NCBI GenBank assembly: GCA_964472415.1
Contig: CAYYLC010000004.1
Coordinates: 33,110-97,109 of the forward strand
Length of the DNA: 64,000 bases
DNA from: an uncultured Gammaproteobacteria bacterium
GTDB lineage: Bacteria; Patescibacteriota; Microgenomatia; Levybacterales; GWA1-39-11
Direction: 5' to 3'
Within the stretch, counting starts at the first letter, position 1. Each line of letters opens with the position of its first letter. Shown here piece after piece: positions 33,982 through 59,934 of this stretch. The notes beneath the pieces were generated by a model. That model was not told where the DNA came from. It searched no databases and was given only the letters and a program-made list of their open reading frames with translations. The position numbers were made by a program, and so were the translations under genes.

Positions 33982-34839
33982 ATGAGAAAAGCAGTATTTT
34001 TTTGTACGGTTCTACTATTCACTACTATCACGACTCCACTGCACGCCCAGACGATGACTTTTCCGGAAAAATCGCAATCAGGGAACACAACAGTAAACGC
34101 TACCGTAGGTGACAGATTTATAACAGTTACCGGCTATCAATCTCCCAATGCATCCGTAGTCATAGAAACGCTTCGGAGAATTTTTATGAGCTCAACTACT
34201 GCTGATGGGAATGGGCATTTTACAATCTCAGAACTCCTTATCACAGATGACTTTCCAGGATTCTGCTTTACCGCGATAGACTTTCGGAGAGTTGGAGAGT
34301 CCGAATCTTGTGTGGAAATAGAAAAAATTACCCGCGACGGCGAAACATACGAGGATATTTTCCTTCCACCGACTATTGGGCTTTCAAAAAAACTTATAAC
34401 AGTCGGAGAAAACGCGCAGATATTTGGATATTCTATGCCACATGCTCAAGTAAATATTCAGTTCAATAATGAAACAGTTACTATTCAATCAGATGAAACA
34501 GGATACTACGAATATATTTTCGAGAACCCTCCCGCCGGAACATATGCATTCTCATCTCGTGGAGTCCTTGGTGAAAAAACATCCCTAGATCCAGAAAATA
34601 AAGCTATCCTTGAGGTGATTACCCTTCCTGAAAAAATTCGTGATGATATAACCGGTTTTGCACAAGATATTGATGACCGATTCCCGGGAATTCTGTTTCT
34701 CGCACCACTTCTTCTGATTTTCATTGCACTGCTTATACTTCTCTTCTGGAAAACACAGCCGAAATTTCTTTTCATTATATTTGACAAATTCAAAAAGCGA
34801 CATCCAATGCACCACGATTACTTCCTATTCCAACACTAA
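33982..34839 (+). CDS. hypothetical surface protein (signal peptide plus C-terminal TM anchor)
   Basis: Signal peptide ending '...PLHA|QT', a beta-rich body and a C-terminal hydrophobic helix with a basic tail. Confidence 0.35.
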   Translation: MRKAVFFCTVLLFTTITTPLHAQTMTFPEKSQSGNTTVNATVGDRFITVTGYQSPNASVVIETLRRIFMSSTTADGNGHFTISELLITDDFPGFCFTAIDFRRVGESESCVEIEKITRDGETYEDIFLPPTIGLSKKLITVGENAQIFGYSMPHAQVNIQFNNETVTIQSDETGYYEYIFENPPAGTYAFSSRGVLGEKTSLDPENKAILEVITLPEKIRDDITGFAQDIDDRFPGILFLAPLLLIFIALLILLFWKTQPKFLFIIFDKFKKRHPMHHDYFLFQH

Positions 34840-35030
34840 TCTTGTATTCATTCTTTGGTGCAGATTTCTATAGACTCATATTTATATAAAAAATACGCGC
34901 TGCCAATACACTCTATGAAACTTTTCCAAAAAAAACCCAATTTATCCTAATATACTACGTGGGGTCATTTATCATGAATTTATATTTTTTCCTTGACAAG
35001 ACTATATAAATGTGTCTTAAATAATATTGT

Positions 35031-36542
35031 ATGATTTCTAGAATTTATCTTCTTCTGCCTTTGCTGGGCATAAGCATCGGTATTACAGGGCTCTTCCTTT
35101 TTGTTTTCACGAAAAATGCTCACGCAGCAACACTTATAAACGCAAGTAACACTATTACAACATCTCGCCCTTCAGCCGCTTCACCCTTTTCTTCAGATGT
35201 TTCTGGTACTGACACTACAGCAGCGATTCTGAATAATGGATCGTTCTATCTTGCATCAGATTCTGCACAAATCAGACAAGGGCAAAGTGGCGCACTTATT
35301 GATGCAGCAACAATTATCGCTTCACAATCTGCAGCACTCACTACTGTGTATTTTTCAGAGGCTGTCGGCGCTGGGGCTGGAGCTGACTCAGATGTTCTCA
35401 TTGTACCAATCACTGCTATGCATAGAATCCAATTTACTATACCTCAAACGATTCCTACCTCTGGAGACATTGTACTCACCTTCCCAATACTTGAGACTGG
35501 AGATGCAAATAATGAAGCTTCTCCTTCTGCCTCTACATTCCAGTTCAACGACCTCGATACGAACGCTGCCACACTCATTCACGTAGTAGATGATGGAACG
35601 GATATCACCGCAAATATTACTGCCGCTGCCACAAATCCTGCGAGCGCTGGGGACTCACCAGAGATCATCATTACCCTTAATAGTGGAAGCATTGTCTCAG
35701 GAAGCGTTGTAGATATATTTATCGGTTGCACAACTATTGCAGCTGGTGACTGCTCTGCCCAGACACCGACACTCATTAACCCGACAAAGACTGCATCAGC
35801 TGGGACTGCTGATGTCTGGAAAATAAATGCTCAGACTCGAGATGCATCTGATGTGAATCTCGATAACGCTACTATTGCTATCGGCACTATTGAATCTGTT
35901 ACCGTTCGGGCAACTGTAGATCCAACACTCTCCTTCACTATTTCTGGGATTGGAAATGGATCAGCAATTAATCTCGGAAACACGACCGGATGCTTGCAAA
36001 CGGAAACAACAAATGCTGGGATTGATTCTACTTCTACTGAGGTAAACCTTGGACTCCTCGCTAATACTCCATCAGGAACTGATGTAAAAGTAGGAAATAT
36101 TGCAGCACAAAGAATCAACATAACCACGAATGCTGCTGGAGGATATATTCTCGCTGCAACATCATCCGGACAACTCATCAACCCAGAAACCGGATTTTTC
36201 CTTAACTCCTCTACCACTCCGACTGCATTCCCTTCAAGTGGCGCTGACTGGTTCGGTATTCATCCGTGTGGACTTGATGTAACTACTGCCACGTGGAATT
36301 CTACTGCAAGTACTGCATGTAGCAGCTTTGTAAGTGGTTCAACAGATCCGATTTGTCTGTATGCGTGGCCTACACAGAGTGCACCACTTACTCTTGCATC
36401 AGATGCAGTAGGACCTATTGGTAACTCACTTGTTACTGGAAATGGAGTAATTTCTGTTGCGTACGCCGCGTCTGTAGATCCGGGAATCCCCCCAGGATCA
36501 TATAGAACAGTAATAACGTATGTGGCAACACCAGTATTCTAG
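35031..36542 (+). CDS. secreted S/T-rich surface protein with WxL-like C-terminal domain (CscB/C-like), paralog A
   Basis: Signal peptide (AHA|A) and a C-terminal ~180 aa with 'LSFTISGIGNGSAINLGN...' and a terminal 'YRTVITYVATPVF'. These parallel WxL domain features ('l.l.svP..inFG', a terminal 'Y.GTLTWTL...P'). Confidence 0.45.
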   Translation: MISRIYLLLPLLGISIGITGLFLFVFTKNAHAATLINASNTITTSRPSAASPFSSDVSGTDTTAAILNNGSFYLASDSAQIRQGQSGALIDAATIIASQSAALTTVYFSEAVGAGAGADSDVLIVPITAMHRIQFTIPQTIPTSGDIVLTFPILETGDANNEASPSASTFQFNDLDTNAATLIHVVDDGTDITANITAAATNPASAGDSPEIIITLNSGSIVSGSVVDIFIGCTTIAAGDCSAQTPTLINPTKTASAGTADVWKINAQTRDASDVNLDNATIAIGTIESVTVRATVDPTLSFTISGIGNGSAINLGNTTGCLQTETTNAGIDSTSTEVNLGLLANTPSGTDVKVGNIAAQRINITTNAAGGYILAATSSGQLINPETGFFLNSSTTPTAFPSSGADWFGIHPCGLDVTTATWNSTASTACSSFVSGSTDPICLYAWPTQSAPLTLASDAVGPIGNSLVTGNGVISVAYAASVDPGIPPGSYRTVITYVATPVF

Positions 36543-36579
36543 AGTTGAGATTATATAAAAATTAATAAATAATAAAAAT

Positions 36580-37563
36580 ATGAAACATCCTGCTCAAGCA
36601 AAATATTTTATAAAAATAACACTCCCCGCAATCCTTATTTCCTTCTTCTTCGTGGCTCTCGCTCAGATCGTATTCGCACAAGAAGCACCTCAAAGAAGCA
36701 TCACAATATCTCCGCCAACCATTGAGCATACTCTTATCCCAGGAGAACGTGCTGAAGGGGTTCTCAAAGTTACAAATGGAGGAAATACTGACCTCACATT
36801 CCAGGCAAATATTCATGACTTTATCGTAGAAGATAAGATTGGAACTCCAAATCTTCTTGCTGATGAAACCTTAACTGAAAAATATTCTGCTGCCACTTGG
36901 CTTGCAGTGACGCCAAATTCCTTCACTGTTCCAGCAGGAACTACGAAGGAGCTAAGCTATTTTCTTCAGGTGCCAGCTGATGCTGCACCAGGCGGAAGAT
37001 ACGCTGCAGTAGTCTATGAGCCAGTTAATATTCTAGATGTTGAAGGGACCGGTGCTGGAGTAAACACCCAATCACTTTCACTCTTTTACATAACTATTGA
37101 TGGACCAATCACAGAAGATGCTGAAGTTGTAAATTTTTCTATTCCAGGATTTTCTGAATATCCTCCTGTAACTGTTTCTACAGAAATTAAAAATAATGGT
37201 CCGCTTCATATTAAACCAAGCGGAAGTATTATTATCCGGAATATGTTTGGCAAAGAAATCGCACGACATGAATTCACTGGCGGAAACATCTTCCCAGAGG
37301 CAACACTCCTGTATGAAAATGAGTTTTTCTCAGATTCAAAGATTCGCGTTGGGCGCTATACGGCAGAACTTTCCACAGCATTTGGTCGCGATCTCAATAT
37401 CCCCCTTGAAGCAACCGCATCATTCATCATCTTCCCTTGGAAAATTGCAGCAGGAATCGCACTTCTTATCGCAATCCTCGTAGTCACAGTTGTGCTCATA
37501 AGAAATAAAAAAACACCTAAAAATCCTCGACCCGAAGCGACGCCTCAACCAACCATAAAATAG
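36580..37563 (+). CDS. DUF916/DUF3324-like cell-surface protein with C-terminal TM anchor (CscA-like)
   Basis: Signal peptide, 'ITISPPTIEHTLIPGERAEGVLKVTNGGNTDLTF' (DUF916-like pattern), a later 'IIIRNMFGKEIARHEF' (DUF3324-like), a C-terminal TM helix and a basic tail. Confidence 0.45.
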   Translation: MKHPAQAKYFIKITLPAILISFFFVALAQIVFAQEAPQRSITISPPTIEHTLIPGERAEGVLKVTNGGNTDLTFQANIHDFIVEDKIGTPNLLADETLTEKYSAATWLAVTPNSFTVPAGTTKELSYFLQVPADAAPGGRYAAVVYEPVNILDVEGTGAGVNTQSLSLFYITIDGPITEDAEVVNFSIPGFSEYPPVTVSTEIKNNGPLHIKPSGSIIIRNMFGKEIARHEFTGGNIFPEATLLYENEFFSDSKIRVGRYTAELSTAFGRDLNIPLEATASFIIFPWKIAAGIALLIAILVVTVVLIRNKKTPKNPRPEATPQPTIK

Positions 37564-37572
37564 GGAAATAGT

Positions 37573-39051
37573 TTGACAGAAGATTTTATTTCTGCGCACA
37601 ATAATACAATGAAGATAATTTTTGTACTTATGATATCCGCAATTCTCTTTTTTGTAAAAATCTCTCATGCGAATGCGGCAGACCTTATCAATACTCGTGA
37701 CACACTCTCAACTTCTCGCCCATCAGCAGCTTCTCCTTTTACCAGTAATGCAGCCTCTAATGACCGGACTATTACAATTTTGAATAACGGATCGTTCTAT
37801 CTTGCATCAGATTCTGCACAAATAATCCGACACTCAACAGGCACAATTCTCGCAACTGATATTCCTATATCTTCTCAATCTGCGGGGCTTTCTACTATCT
37901 ATCTCGGAGATGATATCGGTACGAATACAACTTCAGGAGATGATATATTGCTCGTTCCAATTACCTCAACTCATACCATACGATTTACTACTGCCTCAGA
38001 AATCCCCGCTGGTGGAGATATACTCCTTACATTTCCGGGAGCAGCGAATAACTCTGCTTCTCCTTCTGCAACTACGTTTGCCTTTAATGGGCTAAATAGC
38101 ACTGGTGGACTTCCAGGAGGAATTTCTAGTCATAACATTTCATGTAATACAAATTCCTTTGTTTTTTCTCCACAAATCATGTGTGAAACAACAGGCTCAG
38201 TTCCGGCTGGCACTACAATAACTATTCTTATTGGCTGCACTGCACAGTCCGGTGGAAATTGTACGACTCAATCTCCGACACTCATCAATCCAACAAAGAC
38301 TACAACCACTGGAACCGCAGATATCTGGAAAATATTTATCCAGACCCGAGATGCAACAGACATAGAACTCGACTCTGCAACCGTTGCAATCGGCACAATA
38401 GATTCTGTTACTGTTCGTGCGTCTATTGATCCCTCTCTTACCTTTGCAATTACAGGAATCGGAAATGGTTCAGCAGTTAACCTTGGAAACACGACCGGAT
38501 GCTTGCAAACGGAAATTACCAATTCGGGCCTCAATTCAACCGCAACTGAAATAAATCTTGGACTCCTTGCAGATACTCCATCAGGAATTGATGTAAGAGT
38601 AGGAAATATTGCAGCACAACGAATCAATATTAGCACCAATGCTGCGAATGGCTATACGCTATCAGCAACATCATCCGGTCAACTTATCAATCCTACCACT
38701 GGATTTTTCCTCGCATCTTCTACCACTCCAACCGCATTCCCTTCAAATAGTTCAGATTGGTTCGGTATCCATCCGTGTGGACTTGATGTAACTACTGCCA
38801 CGTGGAATTCTACTGCAAGTACTAGCTGCAATACGTATATTTCGGGTTCAACAGATCCGATTTGTCTGTATGCGTGGCCTACACAGAGTGCACCACTTAC
38901 TCTTGCATCAGATGCAGTAGGACCTATTGGTAACTCACTTGTTACTGGAAATGGAGTAATTTCTGTTGCGTACGCCGCGTCTACTGATGCAGGCGTTCCC
39001 CCAGGAAGTTATTCTACAGTTATCACCTATACTGCAACTCCAGTCTTCTAG
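37573..39051 (+). CDS. secreted S/T-rich surface protein with WxL-like C-terminal domain, paralog A'
   Basis: Same architecture as 35031..36542. The 3' region contains 138 identical nucleotides. Confidence 0.45.
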   Translation: MTEDFISAHNNTMKIIFVLMISAILFFVKISHANAADLINTRDTLSTSRPSAASPFTSNAASNDRTITILNNGSFYLASDSAQIIRHSTGTILATDIPISSQSAGLSTIYLGDDIGTNTTSGDDILLVPITSTHTIRFTTASEIPAGGDILLTFPGAANNSASPSATTFAFNGLNSTGGLPGGISSHNISCNTNSFVFSPQIMCETTGSVPAGTTITILIGCTAQSGGNCTTQSPTLINPTKTTTTGTADIWKIFIQTRDATDIELDSATVAIGTIDSVTVRASIDPSLTFAITGIGNGSAVNLGNTTGCLQTEITNSGLNSTATEINLGLLADTPSGIDVRVGNIAAQRINISTNAANGYTLSATSSGQLINPTTGFFLASSTTPTAFPSNSSDWFGIHPCGLDVTTATWNSTASTSCNTYISGSTDPICLYAWPTQSAPLTLASDAVGPIGNSLVTGNGVISVAYAASTDAGVPPGSYSTVITYTATPVF

Positions 39052-49526: not shown

Positions 49527-49925
49527 TTATTTTCGCTTCTTTTTAGTGCCAAGCGTTATCGTAACATGATCTATGGTCGCCTCAAATCTTCCAAGAAATT
49601 GCGCCCACTGCGGATCTTTTTCAAGCCTACCAAAAAACATCTTGACCCCACTCCCTTTAGCTTTTAACTTTTCATTCATTCGCCACACGGTGGGCGTAGA
49701 TACATTGAGAACTTTCGCGATTGTCCGTTGATCATAACCTTTCAAAAGCATGAATGCTACAGTAAGCCGCTTTGAAATAATAGTTCGCTCCGTACTACTC
49801 AGAATATCTTGGAAAAAAAAGGCAGACTCTGTTTGCCCACTAAGCTCACTCACTCCTTTCAAGAATAAATCAGATACTCCTTCCTCAATACTCTTTTCAA
49901 GTTTCCGTTTAGAAGTTTGAGCCAT
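49527..49925 (-). CDS. TrpR/YerC/YecD-family HTH protein
   Basis: 'ERTIISKRLTVAFMLLKGYDQRTIAKVLNVSTPTVWR' matches the TrpR-like YerC/YecD family. Confidence 0.6.
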   Translation of the reverse strand: MAQTSKRKLEKSIEEGVSDLFLKGVSELSGQTESAFFFQDILSSTERTIISKRLTVAFMLLKGYDQRTIAKVLNVSTPTVWRMNEKLKAKGSGVKMFFGRLEKDPQWAQFLGRFEATIDHVTITLGTKKKRK

Positions 49926-50019: not shown

Positions 50020-50622
50020 ATGAGCTATCTCACCAAATATATAGCGGTTATTCTCTCCTTCCTTTTCACCGGGATCATAAAAAGTAGCCCACTCGAATCC
50101 CAAATGGGTTTTATCCTCGCTGCGCTCATTATCTTTGCCATCATATACATAATAAGCCAACGAAGAAATCCTACATTTAACAAACTCTTCTCTGGCAACC
50201 CCCCTGAAATATTTTTTATTAGTAGCATCGTAATTCTTATGATAGAAGTATCGGGAGGAGCGAACTCATCACTCTACTTTTTGAGCTATTTTCTCTTGTT
50301 TGGCCTCCCCTTAATTAGCACACCTTATATGTCTCTCGCAGTGACGCTCTGCTTTATAGCATTCTATATGCCAGATCTCCTCCGAAGCTTTAACACTGAT
50401 ATAATCCTCAAGATAGGCTCATTTCTCCTCCTCCTCCCTTTATCGTATTTTCTTTCAAATGAGCTCATGAAACGCTCTCGTGAAAATGAAGACCTCAAAG
50501 ATCTTGCAGAAAAAATTGAACTCGAGGCAACAGAGTTGGAAGCAAATGAAGCTGATATGCATGAGAGGGAAAAGCTCGACGAGATCATAGAATCCGCTGA
50601 AAAAATAAAGGATCAATCATGA
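50020..50622 (+). CDS. hypothetical membrane protein with acidic coiled-coil tail
   Basis: 4 TM helices and a C-terminal E/D-rich helix. Its stop overlaps the start of the next gene (ATGA). Confidence 0.4.
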   Translation: MSYLTKYIAVILSFLFTGIIKSSPLESQMGFILAALIIFAIIYIISQRRNPTFNKLFSGNPPEIFFISSIVILMIEVSGGANSSLYFLSYFLLFGLPLISTPYMSLAVTLCFIAFYMPDLLRSFNTDIILKIGSFLLLLPLSYFLSNELMKRSRENEDLKDLAEKIELEATELEANEADMHEREKLDEIIESAEKIKDQS

Positions 50623-51377
50623 ATAGCTTATCTCGCCTTCTTATAGCCTCAGGAATTACCATTAGCAGTCTCTCTATTCTTATGATAGGAACACAAGTTT
50701 ACGCCCAACAAGGTGGTGGCAGACTCTCTAATGATCAATACATCTTACATGAGGGGAACTTCAACTATACTTCTGGAAAAGGAGCAAATGATGAATTTGA
50801 CCTCACATTTACAGGTGGCGAGATCGCTCAAGGTCAATTTTCTGGAGATAATTATACGGTATATTCAGGTTTCCAATACTATTACACGATTATCCCTTTT
50901 GAGTTTTCTGTTTCGAGTCAATTCATAGATTTTGGCCCTCTAATTCCAGGAACTCCGGTAACACGCACAAATCGCCTTACACTGTCAAATGGATCAGCAT
51001 TTGGGTATGAAGTACTTGCATATGAGAATCATGCTCTGAGAATAGACTCTACAGGCGTAGATATACCCGACACCACTTGCGACTCAGGAACGTGCTCGGA
51101 AACCACAAGCGATGAATGGGTCACAAATACTACATATGGATTCGGGTATCGATGTGAGAACATTACCGGCTCTGAATGTAATGCAGCCTTTACTCCTAAT
51201 TCTTATAAGCAATTTTCAAATCTTGAGCAAAATGAAACACCTGAGGCTGTTATGAGCGGTGATGATGTCGGAGAAGGATTTGAGGTAGAAATGATTTACA
51301 AAGTCAATGTATCTTCCACACAGCCTGCAGGGCTCTATCAAAACCACATTACCTATATCGCAACGCCAAGCATATAA
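50619..51377 (+). CDS. secreted protein with WxL-like domain (short paralog of 35031/37573 C-terminal domain)
   Basis: Signal peptide (VYA|QQ), 'FEFSVSSQFIDFGPLIPG' and a terminal 'YQNHITYIATPSI', the same C-terminal signature as the 35-39 kb paralogs. Confidence 0.4.
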   Translation: MNSLSRLLIASGITISSLSILMIGTQVYAQQGGGRLSNDQYILHEGNFNYTSGKGANDEFDLTFTGGEIAQGQFSGDNYTVYSGFQYYYTIIPFEFSVSSQFIDFGPLIPGTPVTRTNRLTLSNGSAFGYEVLAYENHALRIDSTGVDIPDTTCDSGTCSETTSDEWVTNTTYGFGYRCENITGSECNAAFTPNSYKQFSNLEQNETPEAVMSGDDVGEGFEVEMIYKVNVSSTQPAGLYQNHITYIATPSI

Positions 51378-51692
51378 CATCCTCCATTTCACGGATAAAT
51401 CACCTACAATTGCATACTTTCATGAGTAAACAAGATTGTAAGAATTAAGTAAATTTAATTTATACTGATATATCAATCTAAAGTAAAATTGTGAATTGTT
51501 ATCATCATACTATGTATTCTGCTAAATTCTTATCATGTGGAAAATACCCATTATAAGAATCTGTTGATACTTTTTGATATATTAAATGAAATGTGAAATT
51601 TGAGCTCATGAAAATCGTGGATATATACCGAATTATTCCAATATGATGAAAATTACTAGAAACTTGAAGCTATTCTGGAATGAAAATATTTC

Positions 51693-52745
51693 GTGGAATA
51701 TCATAAACAATCCCACGTTTTTTTCTTTGAATTACCGTACGCAATATACGATAATATCTATATGCAAAAACATTTCCTGGTAGCATTGTTCTTATTGCTT
51801 GCTATAGCACCCACTGCAAATGCACAACAATTTCATGTTGGAATAGAGCCTACGAGTATCTATATTGACGCCACTCCACCCTCAAATGTACAAGCACCCT
51901 TCCTCCTTAAAAATCTTTCAGGGAGAAACGTCGAACTGAAGCCAAAGCTCATCCCTTTTGAACCAGACATGAATGGGAAGGTAAAACTTCTTATTAACGA
52001 AGGGCAAAACCTTGACTCAATTATCCGTGAAAGACTTACAATTATTGATGAAAATGAAGCTATTGGCTCGATACACCTTACCCCTGGAGAGACCAAACAA
52101 CTTCGCCTCTTTCTCGAACTGAAGCCGGGAGATCCTGTAGGTGACTATTATTTCAGCCTCGTTTTTATGGCTGAAGGAAATGAGCTCGACCAAACCAGCA
52201 CATCTTCAATTCCTGCTGGAATCACTACGAACGTAATGCTCTCCATTGGCCCAAAAGAGCCACCTTCAGCTTCAATACAAGAGTTTTCTACAAACTCATT
52301 CACAACCAAAGGTCCAGTCGCATTCAGCCTCAAAGTAGAAAATAATGGCAACCATCTCATCCAGCCAAAAGGCACCATTGCTATTAAAAATATGCTTGGA
52401 AAAGAAGTAGGGAGGCTCGAAATATTGCCCCAATATCTTCTTGCAAACTCAAGCCGACTCCTCATTGATTCAAATCAAGCCTCTCCTTCGGCTCAAATAG
52501 ACTCATTCATACAAGACCTAGAACTCACTCAACCTGCAGCTATATGGGGAGAGAAATTCCTTTTCGGATTCTATACTGCTGAGGCGAGACTCACATTTGA
52601 TAATAGCAATGAACCTATCTCACAAAAAACGCAGTTTCTCGCGATTCCCCTTCAAGTAATCTTTTTCCTATCGGGAGTTATTTTTATAACTTTAGGCATT
52701 CTCCTCCGCGTAAAGCTTCGAATAAGAAGAAAAAATACTCCATAA
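51693..52745 (+). CDS. DUF916/DUF3324-like cell-surface protein with C-terminal TM anchor (paralog of 36580..37563)
   Basis: 'IAIKNMLGKEVGRLEI' parallels 'IIIRNMFGKEIARHEF'. It has a signal peptide and a C-terminal TM helix plus an RIRRKNTP tail. The true start is probably the internal Met 'MQKHFLVALFLLL'. Confidence 0.4.
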   Translation: MEYHKQSHVFFFELPYAIYDNIYMQKHFLVALFLLLAIAPTANAQQFHVGIEPTSIYIDATPPSNVQAPFLLKNLSGRNVELKPKLIPFEPDMNGKVKLLINEGQNLDSIIRERLTIIDENEAIGSIHLTPGETKQLRLFLELKPGDPVGDYYFSLVFMAEGNELDQTSTSSIPAGITTNVMLSIGPKEPPSASIQEFSTNSFTTKGPVAFSLKVENNGNHLIQPKGTIAIKNMLGKEVGRLEILPQYLLANSSRLLIDSNQASPSAQIDSFIQDLELTQPAAIWGEKFLFGFYTAEARLTFDNSNEPISQKTQFLAIPLQVIFFLSGVIFITLGILLRVKLRIRRKNTP

Positions 52746-53451
52746 TATCTTAGAATAAAAATATATTCTCCCATATATTAAGAACTCTATTATAAAAATA
52801 AAGGACTATATTTTTTTTCTATATGCCACAATAAAATACGCAATAATTACCAATAGTACTCAAATACCATATCAAGAAAAGATAAATTAGTATATGATAT
52901 ATTTATCACTCTATATTCTCATTTGACAATCAATATCTTATATTATTAATTTCCCCATATTATTTCTAATTTTCATTTATAATTAGAACGTCATTATAAC
53001 TTCCAGAGTTTAAAACTGTGCGGTAATTACGTGAAAAAATTGCAAGAGGCTCAGCCGTTCCATGAAATTTCACAGCCTCTACTGTCTTTCCCCGCATAAT
53101 TGAGGCTAAAGACATGATACATGATTCTATTTGATATTGTTTGATATTATTTTTTTTCACATGCGGTAAATCGTTTGTTTACGTGCAAAGAGCGTGGAAG
53201 TCTCCTTATTTAATTTTTACGGAGTTTTCATCAGTCTCTTACCAAGTAAATGAATATATCAAAATAGATAAAACTATAAACTACAAAATAGGGTCCTGTT
53301 GACAGCTATCATGCACACATACTAACCTAGTATTAGTCCTATGTATAATCGATATAATCAGTATAATCTTCACCTCAAACAGCGGATATGCGGTAATCTT
53401 TTTGTTTTTTCAAAAAAAGATTTAATTTCCTAATTTCACACGAATTTATTT

Positions 53452-56400
53452 ATGGAATTTATTGCACTTTTCAAAGACTATCTTTCAAAGAAGAAAATAA
53501 CAAACAAGACGACTGTCAAAAACTATCTCTCTGATATTCGTCATTTTGTGAATTGGTATGAGAAATCATTTGGTATCGCCTTTTCTCCAACAGAATTTAC
53601 CGATGATATTATAAAGCTCTATGAAGGATCTTCTGGTGCTCCGATCCTGGGTGGAAATATTTCAACAGAGAACAAGCTCTCACACTCCTCCCTGAAGCGC
53701 CATCTTTCCTCATTGAGAAAGTTTGCACTATTTCTGACAGAAAATAAACAAGTAGAGAAGAATCCATTTCATCAAGGAAAGGTTAATGGACAGGACTCGA
53801 CACCTGTCGATATTTGGCATATTCAGGAATTCAAAGATTACCTGAAATTTAAGAAAGCATCCCCTCTAACAATAAAGAACTATCTCACAGATATACATTC
53901 TTTCCGGAGATGGTATGAGAACTCTCTCGGGGAGAATTCTGAAGATTTAAGCTTTCCTCGTATCAATAATACGATCGTTTCTGAATACAAAACCCGCCTC
54001 CACGAATATAAAGGTGCTGCACCACGCACAATTAACCGAAAGCTTTCTTCTCTAAGAAAATATGTTGAATTTGCCATCGGCGCATACTACATGAGTGAAA
54101 ACACACTCCATGAAACGACTGCCACAAAACCATTCCTCATCTCCGAAAATGAGGCCAAAGAAGAGAATAAGCTATCACTTACTGAGATAAAATCCCACAA
54201 AATCAATCTAAACTATTCCTCCTTTCCCCCTATCAGACTTATCCAAACTCTGATAATTCTGCCCTATCTCTTCCTTGAAGGATTTCTCGCAGCAAAAATT
54301 GCAGAACTTCTCGGAACAGTAGCACCCCTCACTCTTGCTGCACAGAAACTTACTCCAGCTCCAAAAATATCCTCAATTCCCACCAAACCTTCTGAACTTT
54401 TAAAGGTAAAAGGATATGAGAAAAAGTTCTACGCTCCCCAAGATATTTCCACGAGCAATCTCTCGTCTCCTGAAAAAATCTGGCATAAACTAAAACACAA
54501 TAGACCGAAATGGTATAAAAAATATCATAATACTCCAATAGTTCACTATATTCATTTTGCGATTCTTATCATTTTTGCTGCAGGGGTCGGAGTTGCGCTC
54601 TATAGAAACTTAGTAACTGATACAAAAAGCCCACTCTTTGCAGCCCCCACCTCTCCACCTCGAGTACTCTCCTTCCAAGGTCGGCTTACTGATAATTTGA
54701 ATAATCCCATAACCACTGCGACTGATATTCGCTTCGCGATATATGATGATATTGCAGCATCCGGGTCTGCACTGCTCTGGCAAGAAGTCCATCACGCAAC
54801 AAATCCTGACCAAGATGGAATTTTTTCTGTTTTACTCGGAACTCAAACTGCGATTCCTGATAGTGTATTTTTAGAAAATAATGACATCTATTTAGGAGTA
54901 ACGATCGAACAAACAGAAGAATTAGCACCTCGGAGAAGAATTGCATCAGTTCCCTATGCCGCAAATTCAGAAAGCCTCCAAGGAATGCGCCCCATCACTG
55001 ACACAAGCGCTGGAACCACAAACGTTGTTCTTGCACTCGATTCTTCTGGAGATCTCACAATAGGCGGAGCCGCAAATCCAACATTTTCCGCAACAGGAGG
55101 CCAATTCTCTCTTTCCGGCGATATTTTACTCCTGACAACCGAAACCGGCACAGATTCAAACATAGTACTCTCTCCTGATGGAATCGGTCAGATTGATTTG
55201 CAGAAAACGCTTGTAAATACTTCAACTAACGGAAATCTTGTCCCTGGGGGAGTAGAAGTTAATGATAAATTTGGTGTACTTGCTACAGAATCTGCAGTTG
55301 CCGCATTTATCGTGAATAATGACGGGCTTTCAGATATTTTCACTGCATCCGCATCAGGTGCAACCCGTTTTACTATAGAAAGTGATGGAACATTGATTGC
55401 TCCTAACTACAATACTGCCGGAGGAGTACTCTGGGCAAATGGAAGCGGAGAGATTAACCAATCAACAGGTGGCCTCTCTGGACAATGCCTCCAATCTACT
55501 GGGGGAACTGCTCCCACGTGGGGAGCATGTGACAGCTCGGCTGGTGGTATGTTCCAAGAGCTTGCTGGTGCGATCATACCAAACAATACAACACTTGATT
55601 TTCTCCTCGGTGGAACCGCTACCTCATCCGCCAAATTCTCGGTTCTTAACATGAATTCGGGAACACCAATCGCATCAATATCGGCAAATTTTGGTAACAA
55701 CGCAACCTACCTAACTGGAGATGGAACTCTTGCAACTACAAACCGTCGTGATCTTATCCTCGGAAACTCCTCCTCCTATAATACAACGGGGAATGTTCTT
55801 ATAAACACGAACGGAACAGGGAGAGTCGGGATTGGTACAGGAGCACCATCAACCAAACTTGATGTAAATGGATCAGGAGGCGTAGCGCTATTTGGAACTG
55901 CAAGTCTTGTTGATCAATATATCTCCCTAAGAAGTCCCTCAACGGGAGTATCATTTGGTATTGATGCAAATCTCAATGGAGGAAGCGGCGCGGGACTCAT
56001 ACAAGCAGGGACCAGCAAAGCCCTCGCGTTTGATGCAAACAATGGAACATTCGGCTCTGCCACCACGCCAGATTTATATATTGATACTACAGGGTATGTT
56101 GGGATTGGTGATGCATCACCTACTGCTCTTTTCACGGTAGGAAATGGTGACCTTTTCCAAGTTAACGCAAGCGGCGCAATTGCAGCCGCAACGGGAATAA
56201 CTTCATCTGGCACTATCACCCTTTCAAATCTTAATACAAATGGAGGAATACTATACGCAAACGGATCAGGAGTACTTACCCAAACCGGAGCTGGTACCTC
56301 TTCTCAATGTCTTCTCGGTGGCACTACTCCTACATGGGGAACATGCGCTGATGGAGCTGGCGCATTTACGATCGATGCAGCAAATGGACTAACTGTCCAG

Positions 56401-59400
56401 AATAACACAACCACAGACTTTCTGATCGGAGGGACAGCAACAAGTAGTGCGAAATTTGCATTAACAAATGTGGATTCTGGTCCTCCTACATTTACTGTAG
56501 GGAGTGGGGATCCGATATTGAAAGGGACGTATAATACGAGCGGAGGTGTTGAGGACATCTATGTATCTGGAAAATATGTGTATGTAGCGGATGGCAGCTC
56601 TGGCCTACAGATAATAGACGCATCGGATCCTTCATCTCCAACACTTGTTGGAACATACGATACAAGTGGGAATGCACTCGGGGTTCATGTATCGGGTAAA
56701 TATGCATACATCGCAGACGATACTGTAGGACTTCGAATCATCGACATCTCGGATCCTTCATCTCCAACACTTGTTGGAACATACAATACAAGTGGGAATG
56801 CTCGGAGCATTTATGTCTCAGGAAAATATGCGTATGTAGCAGACGGATTTTCTGGCCTACATATCATTGACATCTCGGATCCTTCGTCACCAACTCTTAC
56901 GGGAACATATGACACAAGTGGATACAGCTACGATGTCTATGTCTCAGGAAAATATGCGTATGTAGCAGATGATAGTGACTTGAAGATCATCGACATCTCG
57001 GATCCTTCATCTCCAACACTTGTTGGAACATACAATACAAGTGGGAATGCTCGGAGCATTTATGTCTCAGGAAAATATGCGTATGTAGGAGATCTAAGCT
57101 CTGGGATTCAGATTGTAAACATCTCGGATCCTTCGTCACCAACTCTTACAGCAGATGGTCCTGGAGGAGCTCATGATGTCTATGTCTCAGGAAAATATGC
57201 ATATGTGCCAAATGGAACGGGCGACTTTCAGCTTATTGACATCTCGGATCCTTCGTCACCAACTCTTACGGGAACATATGACACAAGTGGAGACGCTCGG
57301 AGCATTTATGTCTCAGGAAAATATGCGTATGTAGGAGATCTAAGCTCTGGTCTTCAAATTCTCGAACTCCCCGGCATAGACACTCCGACACTACATACAG
57401 GGAATATTGAAACAGGAAGTATTACCATAACTGAAAATGCAGATATAGGAAACAACCTATATGTACATAATGGACTGAATGTAGGAAATGGTGGTATTTA
57501 TTCACAGGGAGCACTCGGTATATTTTCAGGAACTTCTGGGACAAATCTTATCCAAGGAAATCCTACTGGAAAAGCACTTCTTACCTTGAATAATACCGGT
57601 GGATCTGATATCTTCACCGCCTCTGCTTCCGGTACTACTCTCTTTACCATAACGAATGCTGGAGGATTACGGCTTGGAACAGATGAAGGGACTTCTGGTG
57701 AGTGCCTGCTTTCAGGTGGTGTTGGAGCAGGTGCAAGCTGGGGATCGTGTGGCGCATCTTCCCAATGGACTACCACTGGATCTGATATTTACTACAATAC
57801 CGGGAATGTGGGAATCGGAACATCTGACATAACTGCAAAATTTGAAATATTATCCAACCTTGGCACTGGACATGCAGCATCAATTTCTGCTATAACTGCC
57901 AAATCATCACTTCTCGTCACCAATGATGGAACCGGAGATCTTATCACCGCATCTGCCTCTGGTAGCACAAAGTTCACTGTAGATAATGAGGGAAATATTT
58001 ACCTTTATGGGCAGATTATCGGTATGGGGGCTGACTTTGCTGAATATTATGAAAAAGAAGATTCTGATGAAGAATTTCTTGCAGGAAGTTTAGTATGTCT
58101 TGCAATAAACGGTACTGTTACAAATTGCAAAAATTCAGATACTACTCAGAAATTACTCGGCGTCGTATCAGACAATGCAATTATTGCAGGTAATGGAGAT
58201 AAAAAGGACGACAATAACTATGTCCTTGTAGGGCTTTTAGGACAGCTCCATGTACGGGTCACAGGAGATATACAAGCTGGAGATCCACTCACGATGTCTA
58301 ATCTTTCTGGCGTCGCAGAAAAAGCAACACAAGAAGGATTTATCATCGGATATGCCATGGAATCAAGTTCAAACACCAAAGATCGAATTATTACATCAAT
58401 TAAGTCGACGTACTACAATCCAAATCTCGCGCTCAATATCGCAGGTGACAATGCAGAAGAATTTGCTGCATCGCTCAATATAAAAAATACTGATGGAACA
58501 ATTGCTATTACTGATGTATCAGGAGCTATCATAAAACGTGCAGAGGCATTCTCACACGTCATCTCAGCAAATATAAATGCCGGAATTGTAAACGCACAAA
58601 AAGTTACGGGAAATGTTATAACAGGTACTACTGGTGCATTCCAAAGCCTTACTGCAACAACTGCAAACATCACCTCTGCCTCATTCAATTCGATTAGTAT
58701 TGGTTCAGAAAATGTTCTTATAGCAGGAACTTCTCTTCGCGACTATATCGCAGAGATCGTTGCAGAAAACATTGAAAATGTAAACTTTTCAAATGGTGAG
58801 GAAATCATTTCCCCGCTTGCCTCAATCGACCAGATAAATACGAATATTATCTCCCCACTTGCTGATGACAGTAGTGTGGAGATCGAACTGAAAAAAGATA
58901 GTATTGCGATACATAATACTGAAACTCAAGAAACCGTAGCTGAAATTGATCATGAGGGGAATGCTCGTTTTATCGGAGACATTGAAGCAAATGATGCAAC
59001 ATTTTCAGGGACACTATCAGCTGATAGAATAATCGCAGGAAATATCGATGGACTTGACGAGAAAATCTCTTCTATCGCAGGAAGCCTTGCACAGAACCAT
59101 CCTACTCCATCCTCACCTTCAGCAGATATCACTTCTACAGACGAATTTCAGGTGGGGAATCTCTATGCAGATCTTGGGATTTATTCGGAAGGATTAACGA
59201 TCCTGGGCACTACTACCACAAGTCAACTTACTGCAATGGATAGTATTGCAGTAGGGACTGGATTCGTGATAAACGAAAATTCAATCAATACATTGGGGAA
59301 AACACTTGAAATTCAACCGCTCCGTCAAGGAGCCATCAGCTTCATGGCTGGAAAAGTAATTATTGATACCGACGGAAACATGAATATCAATGGGAATCTT

Positions 59401-59934
59401 AATATTGCAGGAATTTTAAATGCTACAGAAGGAATCTTCTCAAGTATCCAAACGCATAGCCTCGCAACGAACATTATCTCTCCACTTCCAGACTCAGACT
59501 TGGTAATCCAGCTCGGAAATGATAGTAGCGCATCTACTTCGGGGAATGTACGATTCGCAAACACAAAAGGAGAAGAAGTCCTCAAAATTTCCGGTGAAGG
59601 GGACATCGTCTCATCAGGATCTGCGACATTTGAGAAGCTCAGCTTTAACTTAGTCGGTGAAGCAATTGCTAGCTCAGACACCACAGCTATCGCCACAAGC
59701 TCCGCCGGATTCGCAACTATCCAAAAAAATAGACCAGAGCTTACTATCTATAATGAAAAGATCACAAAAGATTCATTGATTTACATAACTCCGATAGGAA
59801 ACATTCAGGACAAATCCATACATCTTCTACGCCAAGTCCCTCATACAGAGGGAAGTGATGGCAGCTTTACCGTAGGAGCATCAGGAACCCCTGCAACTCA
59901 AGATATCCAATTCAACTGGCTGATTGTGAATTAA
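53452..59934 (+). CDS. giant (2160 aa) membrane protein: tandem tyrosine-recombinase core-binding-like (SAM-like) N-terminal domains, one TM helix, extracellular LVIVD-repeat beta-propeller and fibre-like C-terminal region
   Basis: Residues ~1-100 and ~120-230 each match the integrase N-terminal core-binding pattern (KNYLSDIRHFVNWY...; TIKNYLTDIHSFRRWY...TINRKLSSLRKYVEF). A TM helix 'IVHYIHFAILIIFAAGVGVALY' follows. There are at least 9 LVIVD repeats ('SGKYAYVAD...L.IIDISDPSSPTL.GTY.TSG'). Confidence 0.6.
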   Translation: MEFIALFKDYLSKKKITNKTTVKNYLSDIRHFVNWYEKSFGIAFSPTEFTDDIIKLYEGSSGAPILGGNISTENKLSHSSLKRHLSSLRKFALFLTENKQVEKNPFHQGKVNGQDSTPVDIWHIQEFKDYLKFKKASPLTIKNYLTDIHSFRRWYENSLGENSEDLSFPRINNTIVSEYKTRLHEYKGAAPRTINRKLSSLRKYVEFAIGAYYMSENTLHETTATKPFLISENEAKEENKLSLTEIKSHKINLNYSSFPPIRLIQTLIILPYLFLEGFLAAKIAELLGTVAPLTLAAQKLTPAPKISSIPTKPSELLKVKGYEKKFYAPQDISTSNLSSPEKIWHKLKHNRPKWYKKYHNTPIVHYIHFAILIIFAAGVGVALYRNLVTDTKSPLFAAPTSPPRVLSFQGRLTDNLNNPITTATDIRFAIYDDIAASGSALLWQEVHHATNPDQDGIFSVLLGTQTAIPDSVFLENNDIYLGVTIEQTEELAPRRRIASVPYAANSESLQGMRPITDTSAGTTNVVLALDSSGDLTIGGAANPTFSATGGQFSLSGDILLLTTETGTDSNIVLSPDGIGQIDLQKTLVNTSTNGNLVPGGVEVNDKFGVLATESAVAAFIVNNDGLSDIFTASASGATRFTIESDGTLIAPNYNTAGGVLWANGSGEINQSTGGLSGQCLQSTGGTAPTWGACDSSAGGMFQELAGAIIPNNTTLDFLLGGTATSSAKFSVLNMNSGTPIASISANFGNNATYLTGDGTLATTNRRDLILGNSSSYNTTGNVLINTNGTGRVGIGTGAPSTKLDVNGSGGVALFGTASLVDQYISLRSPSTGVSFGIDANLNGGSGAGLIQAGTSKALAFDANNGTFGSATTPDLYIDTTGYVGIGDASPTALFTVGNGDLFQVNASGAIAAATGITSSGTITLSNLNTNGGILYANGSGVLTQTGAGTSSQCLLGGTTPTWGTCADGAGAFTIDAANGLTVQNNTTTDFLIGGTATSSAKFALTNVDSGPPTFTVGSGDPILKGTYNTSGGVEDIYVSGKYVYVADGSSGLQIIDASDPSSPTLVGTYDTSGNALGVHVSGKYAYIADDTVGLRIIDISDPSSPTLVGTYNTSGNARSIYVSGKYAYVADGFSGLHIIDISDPSSPTLTGTYDTSGYSYDVYVSGKYAYVADDSDLKIIDISDPSSPTLVGTYNTSGNARSIYVSGKYAYVGDLSSGIQIVNISDPSSPTLTADGPGGAHDVYVSGKYAYVPNGTGDFQLIDISDPSSPTLTGTYDTSGDARSIYVSGKYAYVGDLSSGLQILELPGIDTPTLHTGNIETGSITITENADIGNNLYVHNGLNVGNGGIYSQGALGIFSGTSGTNLIQGNPTGKALLTLNNTGGSDIFTASASGTTLFTITNAGGLRLGTDEGTSGECLLSGGVGAGASWGSCGASSQWTTTGSDIYYNTGNVGIGTSDITAKFEILSNLGTGHAASISAITAKSSLLVTNDGTGDLITASASGSTKFTVDNEGNIYLYGQIIGMGADFAEYYEKEDSDEEFLAGSLVCLAINGTVTNCKNSDTTQKLLGVVSDNAIIAGNGDKKDDNNYVLVGLLGQLHVRVTGDIQAGDPLTMSNLSGVAEKATQEGFIIGYAMESSSNTKDRIITSIKSTYYNPNLALNIAGDNAEEFAASLNIKNTDGTIAITDVSGAIIKRAEAFSHVISANINAGIVNAQKVTGNVITGTTGAFQSLTATTANITSASFNSISIGSENVLIAGTSLRDYIAEIVAENIENVNFSNGEEIISPLASIDQINTNIISPLADDSSVEIELKKDSIAIHNTETQETVAEIDHEGNARFIGDIEANDATFSGTLSADRIIAGNIDGLDEKISSIAGSLAQNHPTPSSPSADITSTDEFQVGNLYADLGIYSEGLTILGTTTTSQLTAMDSIAVGTGFVINENSINTLGKTLEIQPLRQGAISFMAGKVIIDTDGNMNINGNLNIAGILNATEGIFSSIQTHSLATNIISPLPDSDLVIQLGNDSSASTSGNVRFANTKGEEVLKISGEGDIVSSGSATFEKLSFNLVGEAIASSDTTAIATSSAGFATIQKNRPELTIYNEKITKDSLIYITPIGNIQDKSIHLLRQVPHTEGSDGSFTVGASGTPATQDIQFNWLIVN

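What the first reader, a model, noticed from the sequence alone, without database searches (positions are those of the whole stretch)
50020..52745. Second, reduced copy of the WxL-like/DUF916-like pair preceded by a 4-TM protein
The pair consists of 50619..51377 (252 aa) and 51693..52745 (DUF916-like).
- The shorter protein ends in 'YQNHITYIATPSI' and has 'FEFSVSSQFIDFGPLIPG', the same domain signature as the 35-39 kb paralogs.
- The DUF916-like protein shares the 'I.I.NM.GKE..R' block and the C-terminal anchor with 36580..37563.

Two dispersed loci with the same pairing argue for a genuine functional module rather than chance similarity. The upstream 4-TM protein (stop/start overlap ATGA) may be a membrane partner.
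Basis: seen in the sequence. Interest (0 to 1): 0.6.

Follow-up and report, generated by a model that had tools for sequence, protein, structure and literature searches.

The report
Split Pam-type pilus operon, tip half
These three genes are not a shrunken duplicate but the starter half (a membrane protein, a tip-like subunit and a membrane-anchored chaperone) of a recently described pilus found only in ultrasmall CPR bacteria; the rod half lies 11 kb away in this genome and in the same operon in most relatives.

Summary
The ORFs, quoted motifs and ATGA overlap are all present. The chaperone-like proteins C (51762-52745) and E (36580-37563) are true paralogs (28% identity, E 7e-16). The 252-aa protein B shares only its C-terminal domain with pilins D/F, but significantly at profile level (hhalign 96.9%, E 1.5e-10).

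The best identification is a Pam-type pilus of Candidate Phyla Radiation bacteria (Troman et al. 2026), here in a Levybacteria-like genome:
- B matches NCBIfam PamT over its full length (E 1.4e-8, far below the curated cut-off), as do all 38 family members tested.
- C is predicted as two beta-sandwich domains plus a C-terminal membrane helix. It resembles chaperone-usher chaperones and the E. faecium WxLIP structure.
- Orthologs of C pass Pfam's threshold for DUF916.
- No pilin domain matches the WxL model.

"Second, reduced copy" is wrong. Each of A, B, C, D/F and E has its own ortholog in related genomes. In 31 of 51 informative genomes they form one operon, A-B-C-pilin-E; 13 are split as here.

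Membrane protein A is conserved upstream of B (59 of 76 loci), and its function is unknown.

Filament assembly is inferred, not shown. This is a new member of a known kind. The DUF916 link to Firmicutes WxL clusters was not found in the literature searched.

The parts
50020..50622 (+). Gene A: polytopic membrane protein (about 6 hydrophobic segments) with an acidic, helical C-terminal tail. It is the first gene of the operon. Function unknown.
   Evidence: ORF. ATGA overlap with B. Orthologs lie directly upstream of the B homolog in 59 of 76 loci. Conserved motifs TG..S..FFL.YF and LDEIIEEAE.L. Only 171 clusters at 50% identity (E <= 0.001) in 1.8 billion representative proteins. No informative Pfam or NCBIfam match.
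50619..51377 (+). Gene B: secreted single-domain PamT-like subunit. It has a signal peptide, a conserved Gly-rich segment at 31-93, and a truncated-Ig Pam pilin C-terminal domain at about 95-252 with four conserved Cys.
51378..51761 (+). Long AT-rich B-C spacer, typical of the split form of the operon.
   Evidence: Spacers of about 390-880 nt in 12 of the 13 split-type loci (52 nt in L051), against mostly under 130 nt in the complete operons. Not conserved beyond the closest relative. No Rfam match. No excess of promoter- or terminator-like sites.
51762..52745 (+). Gene C: signal peptide, two beta-sandwich domains and a C-terminal membrane helix followed by basic residues. A DUF916/WxLIP-type, PamC/D-like membrane-anchored chaperone candidate ('chaperone 1'). 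The alternative GTG start at 51693 is unlikely.
35031..36542 (+). Gene D: two-domain PamA-like major pilin candidate (rod half of the system).
   Evidence: 64% identical to F. Orthologous to the fourth operon gene in relatives. 13 of 33 family members hit NF058581 Pam_pilin_C, best E 1.9e-8. Its C-terminal domain aligns to B.
36580..37563 (+). Gene E: second membrane-anchored chaperone-like protein ('chaperone 2'), a paralog of C.
   Evidence: BLASTP against C E 7e-16. Orthologous to the fifth operon gene in relatives at 33-46% identity, distinct from the C lineage. Weak PF06030 hit, E 0.11.
37573..39051 (+). Gene F: second PamA-like pilin paralog. The real start is probably internal, at about 37609 or 37630.
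   Evidence: A 473-aa protein (P0177, 64% identical to D) from the same 104,792-bp public contig is taken here to be F's product; this was not checked directly.
33982..34839 (+). Gene G: signal peptide, two Ig-like (Big_6 / CarboxypepD_reg-like) domains and a C-terminal membrane helix. A conserved neighbour of the operon and a speculative PamR-like anchor.
   Evidence: Sub-threshold Pfam hits. Orthologs sit next to chaperone 2 in relatives.
53452..59934 (+). Giant 2160-aa surface protein, a conserved downstream neighbour. It corresponds to the 'tail fibre-like protein' that co-localises with pam operons.
   Evidence: Pfam on record: Phage_int_SAM, LVIVD, Peptidase_G2 (faint). Homologs follow the operon in most loci. 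The Pam paper's neighbourhood analysis describes such a protein.

Best explanation
The locus at 50020-52745 is the initiation half of a Pam-type pilus system. Pam pili are a donor-strand-exchange pilus restricted to CPR/Patescibacteria. The window appears to come from a Levybacteria-like (Microgenomates group) genome.

Proposed parts:
- B is exported by Sec and consists essentially of one truncated Ig-like Pam pilin domain with an open groove. It is the PamT-like subunit proposed to nucleate and cap the filament tip.
- C is exported and stays tethered to the cytoplasmic membrane by its C-terminal helix. Its two Ig-like domains are proposed to act as a PapD/FimC-like chaperone: it would insert a strand into B's groove until the linker strand of an incoming two-domain pilin displaces it.
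- The incoming pilins are D and F, encoded at 35-39 kb and served by the paralogous chaperone E.
- A is a conserved polytopic membrane protein translationally coupled to B. It is inferred to be a membrane partner, perhaps an assembly or anchoring platform.

Shown here: homology, predicted folds, orthology and gene linkage.

Inferred by analogy with the cryo-EM and AlphaFold work on Ca. Mycosynbacter amalyticus: donor-strand exchange, tip position, chaperone activity and filament formation.

The two dispersed loci are one ancestral operon (A-B-C-pilin-E) that has been split and whose pilin gene has been duplicated.
For: NCBIfam:
- B hits PamT over nearly the whole model (E 1.4e-8) and Pam_pilin_C.
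- 38 of 38 and 37 of 38 family members hit these models, best E 9.6e-17 and 2e-10.
- 13 of 33 D-family members hit Pam_pilin_C.

Domain sharing: B 99-252 aligns to D 334-503 by hhalign, E 1.5e-10.

Folds:

Orthology and linkage:
- Each window gene has its own ortholog in the single operon of L006-L008.
- Of 51 loci with at least 6 kb downstream, 31 are complete and 13 are split like the window.
- A chaperone-like gene follows B in 71 of 75 loci, and A precedes it in 59 of 76.

Taxonomy: the loci whose titles name a lineage are Levybacteria, Woesebacteria, Shapirobacteria or Microgenomates, a class in which the Pam paper reports PamA homologs. The giant 'tail-fibre-like' neighbour is also as reported there.
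Against: - The scores fall far below NCBIfam's curated cut-offs: 34 against 240 bits for PamT, and 22 against 55 for Pam_pilin_C.
- D and F themselves give no NCBIfam hit.
- No direct comparison with the M. amalyticus proteins or the cryo-EM structures was possible. They are absent from the PDB copy searched, and the afdb50 library was unavailable.
- B has a strongly conserved N-terminal segment (31-93) that is modelled with low confidence. It could contain a donor-like strand, which would make B an adaptor rather than a tip.
- No filament has been observed in this lineage.
Confidence: 0.7

Rival explanations
1. It is a WxL-cluster-like, non-filamentous surface complex. B (small) and D/F (large) would be surface adhesins held at the envelope by the membrane-anchored WxLIP-type proteins C and E, as proposed for the Firmicutes Csc/WxL clusters. 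No polymerisation would be involved.
For: - Orthologs of C pass Pfam's threshold for WxLIP_PGBD/DUF916.
- The cluster logic is the same: small protein, large protein with the shared C-terminal domain, and a two-Ig protein with a membrane helix.
Against: - No WxL (PF13731) or DUF3324 match in any family member or consensus sequence.
- The pilin domains do match the Pam pilin model, which derives from proteins seen as filaments by cryo-EM.
- The WxL model itself is largely based on prediction.
Confidence: 0.15
2. It is an independent, reduced duplicate of the 35-39 kb module. On this view there are two separately functioning pilin + DUF916 pairs.
For: Both loci contain one protein with the shared C-terminal domain followed by a chaperone-like paralog.
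Against: - C and E are only 22-28% identical, and each has closer orthologs (33-57% and 33-46%) occupying different positions of one operon in relatives.
- B-type and D-type proteins coexist in that operon in 31 of 51 genomes.
- B is a distinct, highly conserved family with 34 invariant columns, not a truncated D.
Confidence: 0.05
3. One of the two paralogs C and E is not a chaperone but the PamR-like terminator or membrane anchor of the filament. The locus would then encode the tip plus the anchor.
For: - PamR is also described as two FnIII-like domains plus a C-terminal membrane helix.
Against: - The two-domain superpositions are longer with chaperone-usher chaperones (174 and 161 residues).
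- In complete operons each pilin-type gene is followed by one paralog (B-C, pilin-E), which fits dedicated chaperones.
- Another conserved neighbour, G, with two Ig-like domains and a membrane helix, could fill the anchor role.
Confidence: 0.1

Closest known systems
Pam pilus of Candidatus Mycosynbacter amalyticus (PamA/B/E pilins, PamT tip, PamC/D membrane-anchored chaperones, PamR). Troman et al., bioRxiv 10.64898/2026.03.03.709456. NCBIfam NF058579 and NF058581.
   Same: - Found only in CPR bacteria.
- All parts are Sec-secreted.
- A small single-domain subunit the same length as the PamT model.
- Large pilins of about 500 aa with the shared C-terminal domain and paired cysteines.
- Two paralogous two-domain proteins with a C-terminal membrane helix.
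- No usher.
- A giant tail-fibre-like protein as neighbour.
   Different: - Very divergent in sequence: all hits are below the curated cut-offs, and this is Microgenomatia rather than Saccharimonadia.
- A smaller gene set, with no recognisable PamB, PamE or PamR.
- An additional conserved polytopic membrane protein (A) leads the operon.
- The operon is split in this genome.
- The chaperones carry a recognisable DUF916 signature.
WxL / Csc surface-protein clusters of Lactobacillales and Bacillales: small WxL, large WxL and WxLIP (DUF916 + DUF3324 + membrane helix).
   Same: - The same three-part logic and similar protein sizes.
- The chaperone-like protein's first domain belongs to the same Pfam family (PF06030) in orthologs.
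- Fold match to the solved WxLIP structure.
- A C-terminal motif YxxxITYxAxP that recalls the distal WxL motif YXXX(L/I/V)TWXLXXXP.
   Different: - No W-x-L motifs and no PF13731 or PF11797 (DUF3324) hits.
- No LPxTG protein was seen.
- The host lineage is CPR, not Firmicutes.
- WxL proteins are thought to bind peptidoglycan rather than to polymerise.
[quoted passage not shown]
   Same: - A truncated Ig-like pilin fold.
- A two-domain boomerang chaperone fold.
- Presumed donor-strand complementation and exchange.
- A tip subunit lacking a donor strand.
   Different: - No usher and no outer membrane.
- The chaperone is membrane-anchored.
- The rod pilins have an extra N-terminal domain.
- No sequence-level similarity: no PapD_N, PapD_C or Fimbrial Pfam hits.

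Membership tests
Pam pilus system (CPR) | Subunit carries the Pam pilin C-terminal truncated-Ig domain (NCBIfam NF058581, cut-off 55 bits). | tested here: inconclusive
   B scores 22.4 bits (E 1e-4), below the cut-off. However, 37 of 38 B-family and 13 of 33 D-family members hit the model, best E 2e-10 and 1.9e-8. Homology is supported, but curated membership is not reached.
Pam pilus system (CPR) | PamT equivalog (NF058579, cut-off 240 bits): single-domain tip subunit of about 240 aa. | tested here: not met
   B scores 34.4 bits (E 1.4e-8) and covers profile positions 10-239 of 241. All 38 relatives hit the model, best 9.6e-17. B is a distant homolog with the same architecture, not an equivalog by NCBI's threshold.
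Pam pilus system (CPR) | Two-beta-domain PapD/FimC-like chaperone retained by a C-terminal transmembrane helix. | tested here: met
Pam pilus system (CPR) | Pilins and chaperones are encoded together in one operon. | tested here: met
   One operon, A-B-C-pilin-E, in 31 of 51 informative related genomes. It is split into two loci 11 kb apart in this window and in 13 relatives.
Pam pilus system (CPR) | N-terminal Sec signal peptides on all components. | tested here: met
   Seen in the sequence: B begins MNSLSRLLIASGITISSLSILMIGTQVYA|QQ and C begins MQKHFLVALFLLLAIAPTANA|QQ. No dedicated signal-peptide predictor was run.
Pam pilus system (CPR) | Restricted to CPR/Patescibacteria. | tested here: met
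   Every one of the 80 best species-representative loci whose title names a lineage is Levybacteria, Woesebacteria, Shapirobacteria, Microgenomates or 'Patescibacteria group'. Many MAG records carry an evidently wrong 'Gammaproteobacteria' title, and a few are titled only 'bacterium'.
Pam pilus system (CPR) | Subunits polymerise by donor-strand exchange into extracellular filaments. | not testable with these tools
   This needs multimer prediction or cryo-EM/ET.
WxL / Csc cluster | C-terminal WxL domain with two Trp-x-Leu motifs (PF13731). | tested here: not met
   No PF13731 hit in 38 B-family members, 33 D-family members or the consensus sequences. B has a single Trp (W167, 'EWV'). There is only a motif-level resemblance, YxxxITYxAxP against YXXX(L/I/V)TWXLXXXP.
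WxL / Csc cluster | WxLIP first domain, DUF916/PGBD (PF06030, threshold 27.3 bits). | tested here: inconclusive
   The window's C gives no hit and E gives E 0.11. Orthologs of C reach 28-31 bits, and 11 of 32 family members hit the model. Membership holds by orthology, not by the window protein's own score.
WxL / Csc cluster | WxLIP second domain, DUF3324/HBD (PF11797). | tested here: not met
   No hit in any of the 32 family members at E <= 0.1. A second Ig-like domain is present only at fold level.
Chaperone-usher pili | An outer-membrane usher, plus PapD_N/PapD_C chaperone and fimbrial subunit sequence families. | tested here: not met
   No such Pfam hits for A, B, C, D, E or F or for the families. 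A is a 200-aa helical membrane protein, not a beta-barrel usher. The similarity is at fold level only.

The most novel reading that the evidence does not exclude
The Microgenomatia operon may be a sequence-level bridge showing that CPR Pam pili and the Firmicutes WxL/Csc clusters are one ancient family of usher-less, membrane-anchored-chaperone systems. On this reading DUF916/WxLIP corresponds to PamC/D, the small WxL protein to PamT, and the large WxL protein to PamA. The WxL domain would be a diverged Pam pilin C-terminal domain in which G-Y-x-L and YxxxITYxAxP became G-W-x-L and YxxxLTWxLxxxP.

This would imply that WxL proteins are assembled, and perhaps polymerised, by donor-strand complementation. 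It would also imply that the conserved membrane protein A is a previously unnoticed component of such machines.
Probability: 0.4. Interest if true: 0.7.

Novelty: new member of a known kind. Interest (0 to 1): 0.45.

Why it matters
CPR bacteria are mostly uncultured episymbionts, and how they attach to hosts is a central open question. The Pam pilus has been seen experimentally in only one Saccharimonadia species.

This locus shows what a minimal Pam-like gene set looks like in Levybacteria (Microgenomatia):
- It consists of a membrane protein, a tip-like subunit, chaperone 1, a pilin and chaperone 2, next to a giant tail-fibre-like protein.
- The set can be split across the genome without loss of any part.
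- It includes a conserved polytopic membrane protein not mentioned in the published model.

It also ties the Pam chaperones to Pfam DUF916. That offers a testable evolutionary and mechanistic link to the poorly understood WxL surface-protein clusters of enterococci, listeriae and lactobacilli.

Tried and rejected
- **PDB sequence searches.** Searches with the B and C family profiles and with a DUF916-positive ortholog found nothing relevant. The Pam structures are evidently not in the PDB copy.
- **AlphaFold database.** The Foldseek afdb50 library was not available. Comparison with M. amalyticus Pam models or with WxL models was therefore impossible.
- **Firmicutes WxLIP genes.** tblastn of a DUF916-positive ortholog against 72,556 plasmids, intended to reach Firmicutes WxLIP and WxL genes, gave no match.
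- **WxL domain.** PF13731 was looked for in 71 family members and in the consensus sequences, and was absent.
- **B-C spacer.** It was checked for an RNA family, promoter or terminator excess, and conservation. There was nothing beyond 63 nt shared with the closest relative. It was rejected as a structured element.
- **Protein A.** phmmer against 1.8 billion representatives found a small family of about 200-aa proteins (171 clusters at E <= 0.001). Pfam scans of distant members were uninformative.
- **TrpR/YerC-like gene.** The gene at 49527-49925 was considered as a dedicated regulator. This was rejected as unsupported, because the gene is absent from that position in the more distant operons.
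- **Chance or compositional similarity.** Rejected on the basis.
Full report
**Observation**

The three ORFs are present as described:
- A at 50020-50622 (200 aa).
- B at 50619-51377 (252 aa).
- C, an ORF open from GTG 51693 to 52745.

The A stop and the B start overlap as ATGA, and the quoted peptide strings are all there. Public gene calls and the signal-peptide-like N-terminus MQKHFLVALFLLLAIAPTANA place the start of C at ATG 51762, giving 327 aa. Family-averaged hydropathy gives A about six hydrophobic segments and an acidic helical tail of about 55 residues, rather than four transmembrane segments.

**Is the similarity to the 35-39 kb genes real?**

- C and E (36580-37563) align over 229 residues at 28% identity, E 7e-16. 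The alignment includes the IxIxNMxGKE block and the C-terminal hydrophobic helix.
- B aligns to D (35031-36542) and F (37573-39051) only over the last 28 residues by BLASTP (E 8e-4 and 8e-3).
- I built family alignments: A1 (38 B-type proteins, 34 invariant columns including four Cys) and A3 (33 D-type proteins).
- hhalign aligns B 99-252 with D 334-503 over 147 columns, at probability 96.9% and E 1.5e-10.
- Local HMM searches of all window ORFs find only B, D and F for this domain, and only C and E for the chaperone-like family.

**What the proteins are**

Pfam gives nothing significant for A, B, C, D or F. For E it gives only a weak PF06030 (DUF916 / WxLIP_PGBD) hit at E 0.11.

NCBIfam release 20 gives two hits for B:
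- NF058579, 'CPR-type pilus protein PamT': E 1.4e-8, 34 bits, protein residues 15-250 against profile positions 10-239 of 241.
- NF058581, 'Pam pilus system pilin subunit' C-terminal domain: E 1e-4.

Both are far below the curated cut-offs (240 and 55 bits). However, all 38 B-family members hit PamT (best 9.6e-17) and 37 hit Pam_pilin_C (best 2e-10). Thirteen of 33 D-family members also hit Pam_pilin_C (best 1.9e-8).

These models derive from a 2026 preprint (10.64898/2026.03.03.709456), which reports the following:
- Cryo-EM of filaments from the CPR parasite Ca. Mycosynbacter amalyticus identified pilins PamA and PamB.
- The operon also encodes PamT, a single truncated Ig domain proposed to be the tip.
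- Homologs were found only in CPR, chiefly Saccharimonadia and Microgenomatia.
- A tail-fibre-like protein co-localises with the operon.

**Structure predictions**

B:
- Mean pLDDT 76.9, about 90 for residues 95-250, and below 50 for the conserved segment 30-90.
- The top Foldseek hits are CsuE, FimG and the PapG pilin domain, at weak E values of about 1e-3 to 1e-2.

C:
- Mean pLDDT 82.9.
- Two beta-sandwich domains (26-137 and 154-294) followed by a helix at 297-325.

**DUF916 and WxL**

Eleven of 32 C/E-family members hit PF06030. Orthologs of C in L005, L008, P0146 and P0149 exceed the gathering threshold, at 28-31 bits against 27.3, covering profile positions 19-119 of 121. 'DUF916-like' is therefore correct at family level.

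WxL clusters comprise a small WxL protein, a large WxL protein and WxLIP (DUF916 + DUF3324 + membrane helix). [quoted passage not shown] This is the same logic as the Pam model.

However, no member or consensus of the B or D families hits the WxL model PF13731, and none of the C/E family hits DUF3324. What remains is a motif resemblance:
- YxxxITYxAxP here against the distal WxL motif YXXX(L/I/V)TWXLXXXP.
- G-Y-x-[LV] here against G-W-x-L.

I could not test this resemblance statistically. Neither the Pam preprint nor my literature searches connect Pam with WxL or DUF916.

**Genomic context: the decisive result**

Gene neighbourhoods of B homologs show one plus-strand operon beside leuS in L006, L007 and L008. 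Its order is:
1. A-like membrane protein.
2. B-like subunit.
3. C-like protein.
4. A pilin of about 470 aa.
5. E-like protein.

After these come a Big_6/CarboxypepD_reg-like protein on the opposite strand and a giant protein with Phage_int_SAM and Peptidase_S74 or G2 domains.

BLASTP shows that each window protein has its own ortholog there:
- A at 28-30% identity.
- B at 48-53%.
- C at 33-36%.
- D and F at 38-48%.
- E at 33-46%.
- G at 32-39%.

C and E cross-match only at 19-28%.

A scan of one genome per species found 206 loci. The best 80 whose titles name a lineage are Levybacteria, Woesebacteria, Shapirobacteria or Microgenomates, and the closest is a Levyibacteriota MAG at 73% identity. 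Counts from those loci:
- A chaperone-like gene directly follows B in 71 of 75.
- A precedes B in 59 of 76, usually within a few bases or overlapping.
- Of 51 loci with at least 6 kb downstream, 31 have the complete operon.
- Thirteen have the window's split form, B-C then the giant gene. Twelve of these have a long B-C spacer of about 390-880 nt; the thirteenth, L051, has 52 nt.

The window therefore carries one system in two pieces. The rod half (G, D, E, F) lies at 33982-39051, and the initiation half (A, B, C) at 50020-52745, next to the giant protein at 53452-59934. It is not a 'second, reduced copy'.

**Mechanism**

The following is inference by analogy with the Pam model.
- B and C are exported by Sec.
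- C remains tethered by its C-terminal helix, with the basic residues after the helix on the cytoplasmic side. It caps the open groove of B.
- The linker strand of the first D/F subunit, itself held by E, displaces C. Further D/F subunits then add at the base.
- The gene order in complete operons, B-C then pilin-E, fits a dedicated chaperone for each subunit type.
- A is translationally coupled to B and restricted to this lineage: 171 clusters at 50% identity (E <= 0.001), with no informative Pfam match. It is a candidate membrane platform, but nothing tests this.

Three uncertainties remain:
- B's conserved but poorly modelled segment 31-93 might contain a donor-like strand, which would make B an adaptor rather than a tip.
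- C or E might be a PamR-like anchor.
- No filament has been seen in Microgenomatia.

**Verdict**

This is a real, conserved module. It is best described as a divergent member of the recently described Pam pilus, so it is a new member of a known kind. The WxL label and the duplication reading were not.

Three points go beyond the published description:
- The split-operon architecture.
- The conserved membrane protein A.
- The DUF916 bridge to the Firmicutes WxL clusters.

Noticed in passing
window 53339-53370: CTATGTATAATCGATATAATCAGTATAATCTT: three TATAAT boxes spaced 9 nt apart, the first in an extended TGTATAAT form. The element lies about 80 nt upstream of the giant gene. It is 31/32 identical in relatives L004/L009, L010 and L012, although the surrounding intergenic DNA is not conserved. 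It looks like a conserved strong promoter or leader for the giant surface-protein gene.
   Followed up: partly
window 53452-59934: A 2160-aa protein with N-terminal phage-integrase SAM-like repeats, LVIVD beta-propeller repeats and a Peptidase_G2/S74-like C-terminus. Homologs follow the pilus operon in most related genomes. It matches the 'tail fibre-like protein' that the Pam paper found co-localised with pam operons.
   Followed up: partly
window 33982-34839: A 285-aa protein with a signal peptide, two Big_6/CarboxypepD_reg-like Ig domains and a C-terminal membrane helix. It is a conserved neighbour of chaperone 2 in relatives, usually on the opposite strand. It could be the analogue of the RbmA-like anchor PamR; this was not tested.
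   Followed up: partly
window 50709-50897 (B residues 31-93): This segment of B is among the most conserved in the family (motif around G..G..N..V..GFQY, with many invariant Gly), yet AlphaFold models it with pLDDT below 50. 'KVRAGFQY' in the family consensus resembles 'TVRATV' just before the C-terminal domain of the D family. It is possibly a donor-like or partner-dependent strand.
   Followed up: no
window 51378-51761, and loci L009-L014, L023, L033, L046, L052, L067, L083: A long, non-conserved AT-rich spacer between B and C occurs in 12 of the 13 split-type operons but in few complete operons. This suggests that C gained its own promoter when the operon was rearranged.
   Followed up: partly
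window 49527-49925 (minus strand): A TrpR/YerC-like small DNA-binding protein is transcribed divergently from A. It is present in the same place only in the closest relatives (L002, L004) and absent in the more distant operons, so it is probably not a dedicated regulator.
   Followed up: partly
loci L010-L016 and many others: Many species-representative MAG records that carry this Levybacteria-type operon are titled 'uncultured Gammaproteobacteria bacterium' (TPA_asm records). This is evidently a labelling error in the public titles.
   Followed up: no
window 32722-33936: A 404-aa protein with an N-terminal membrane anchor and a PEGA domain (E 4.9e-12) lies directly upstream of gene G. Its link to the pilus genes was not examined.
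   Followed up: no
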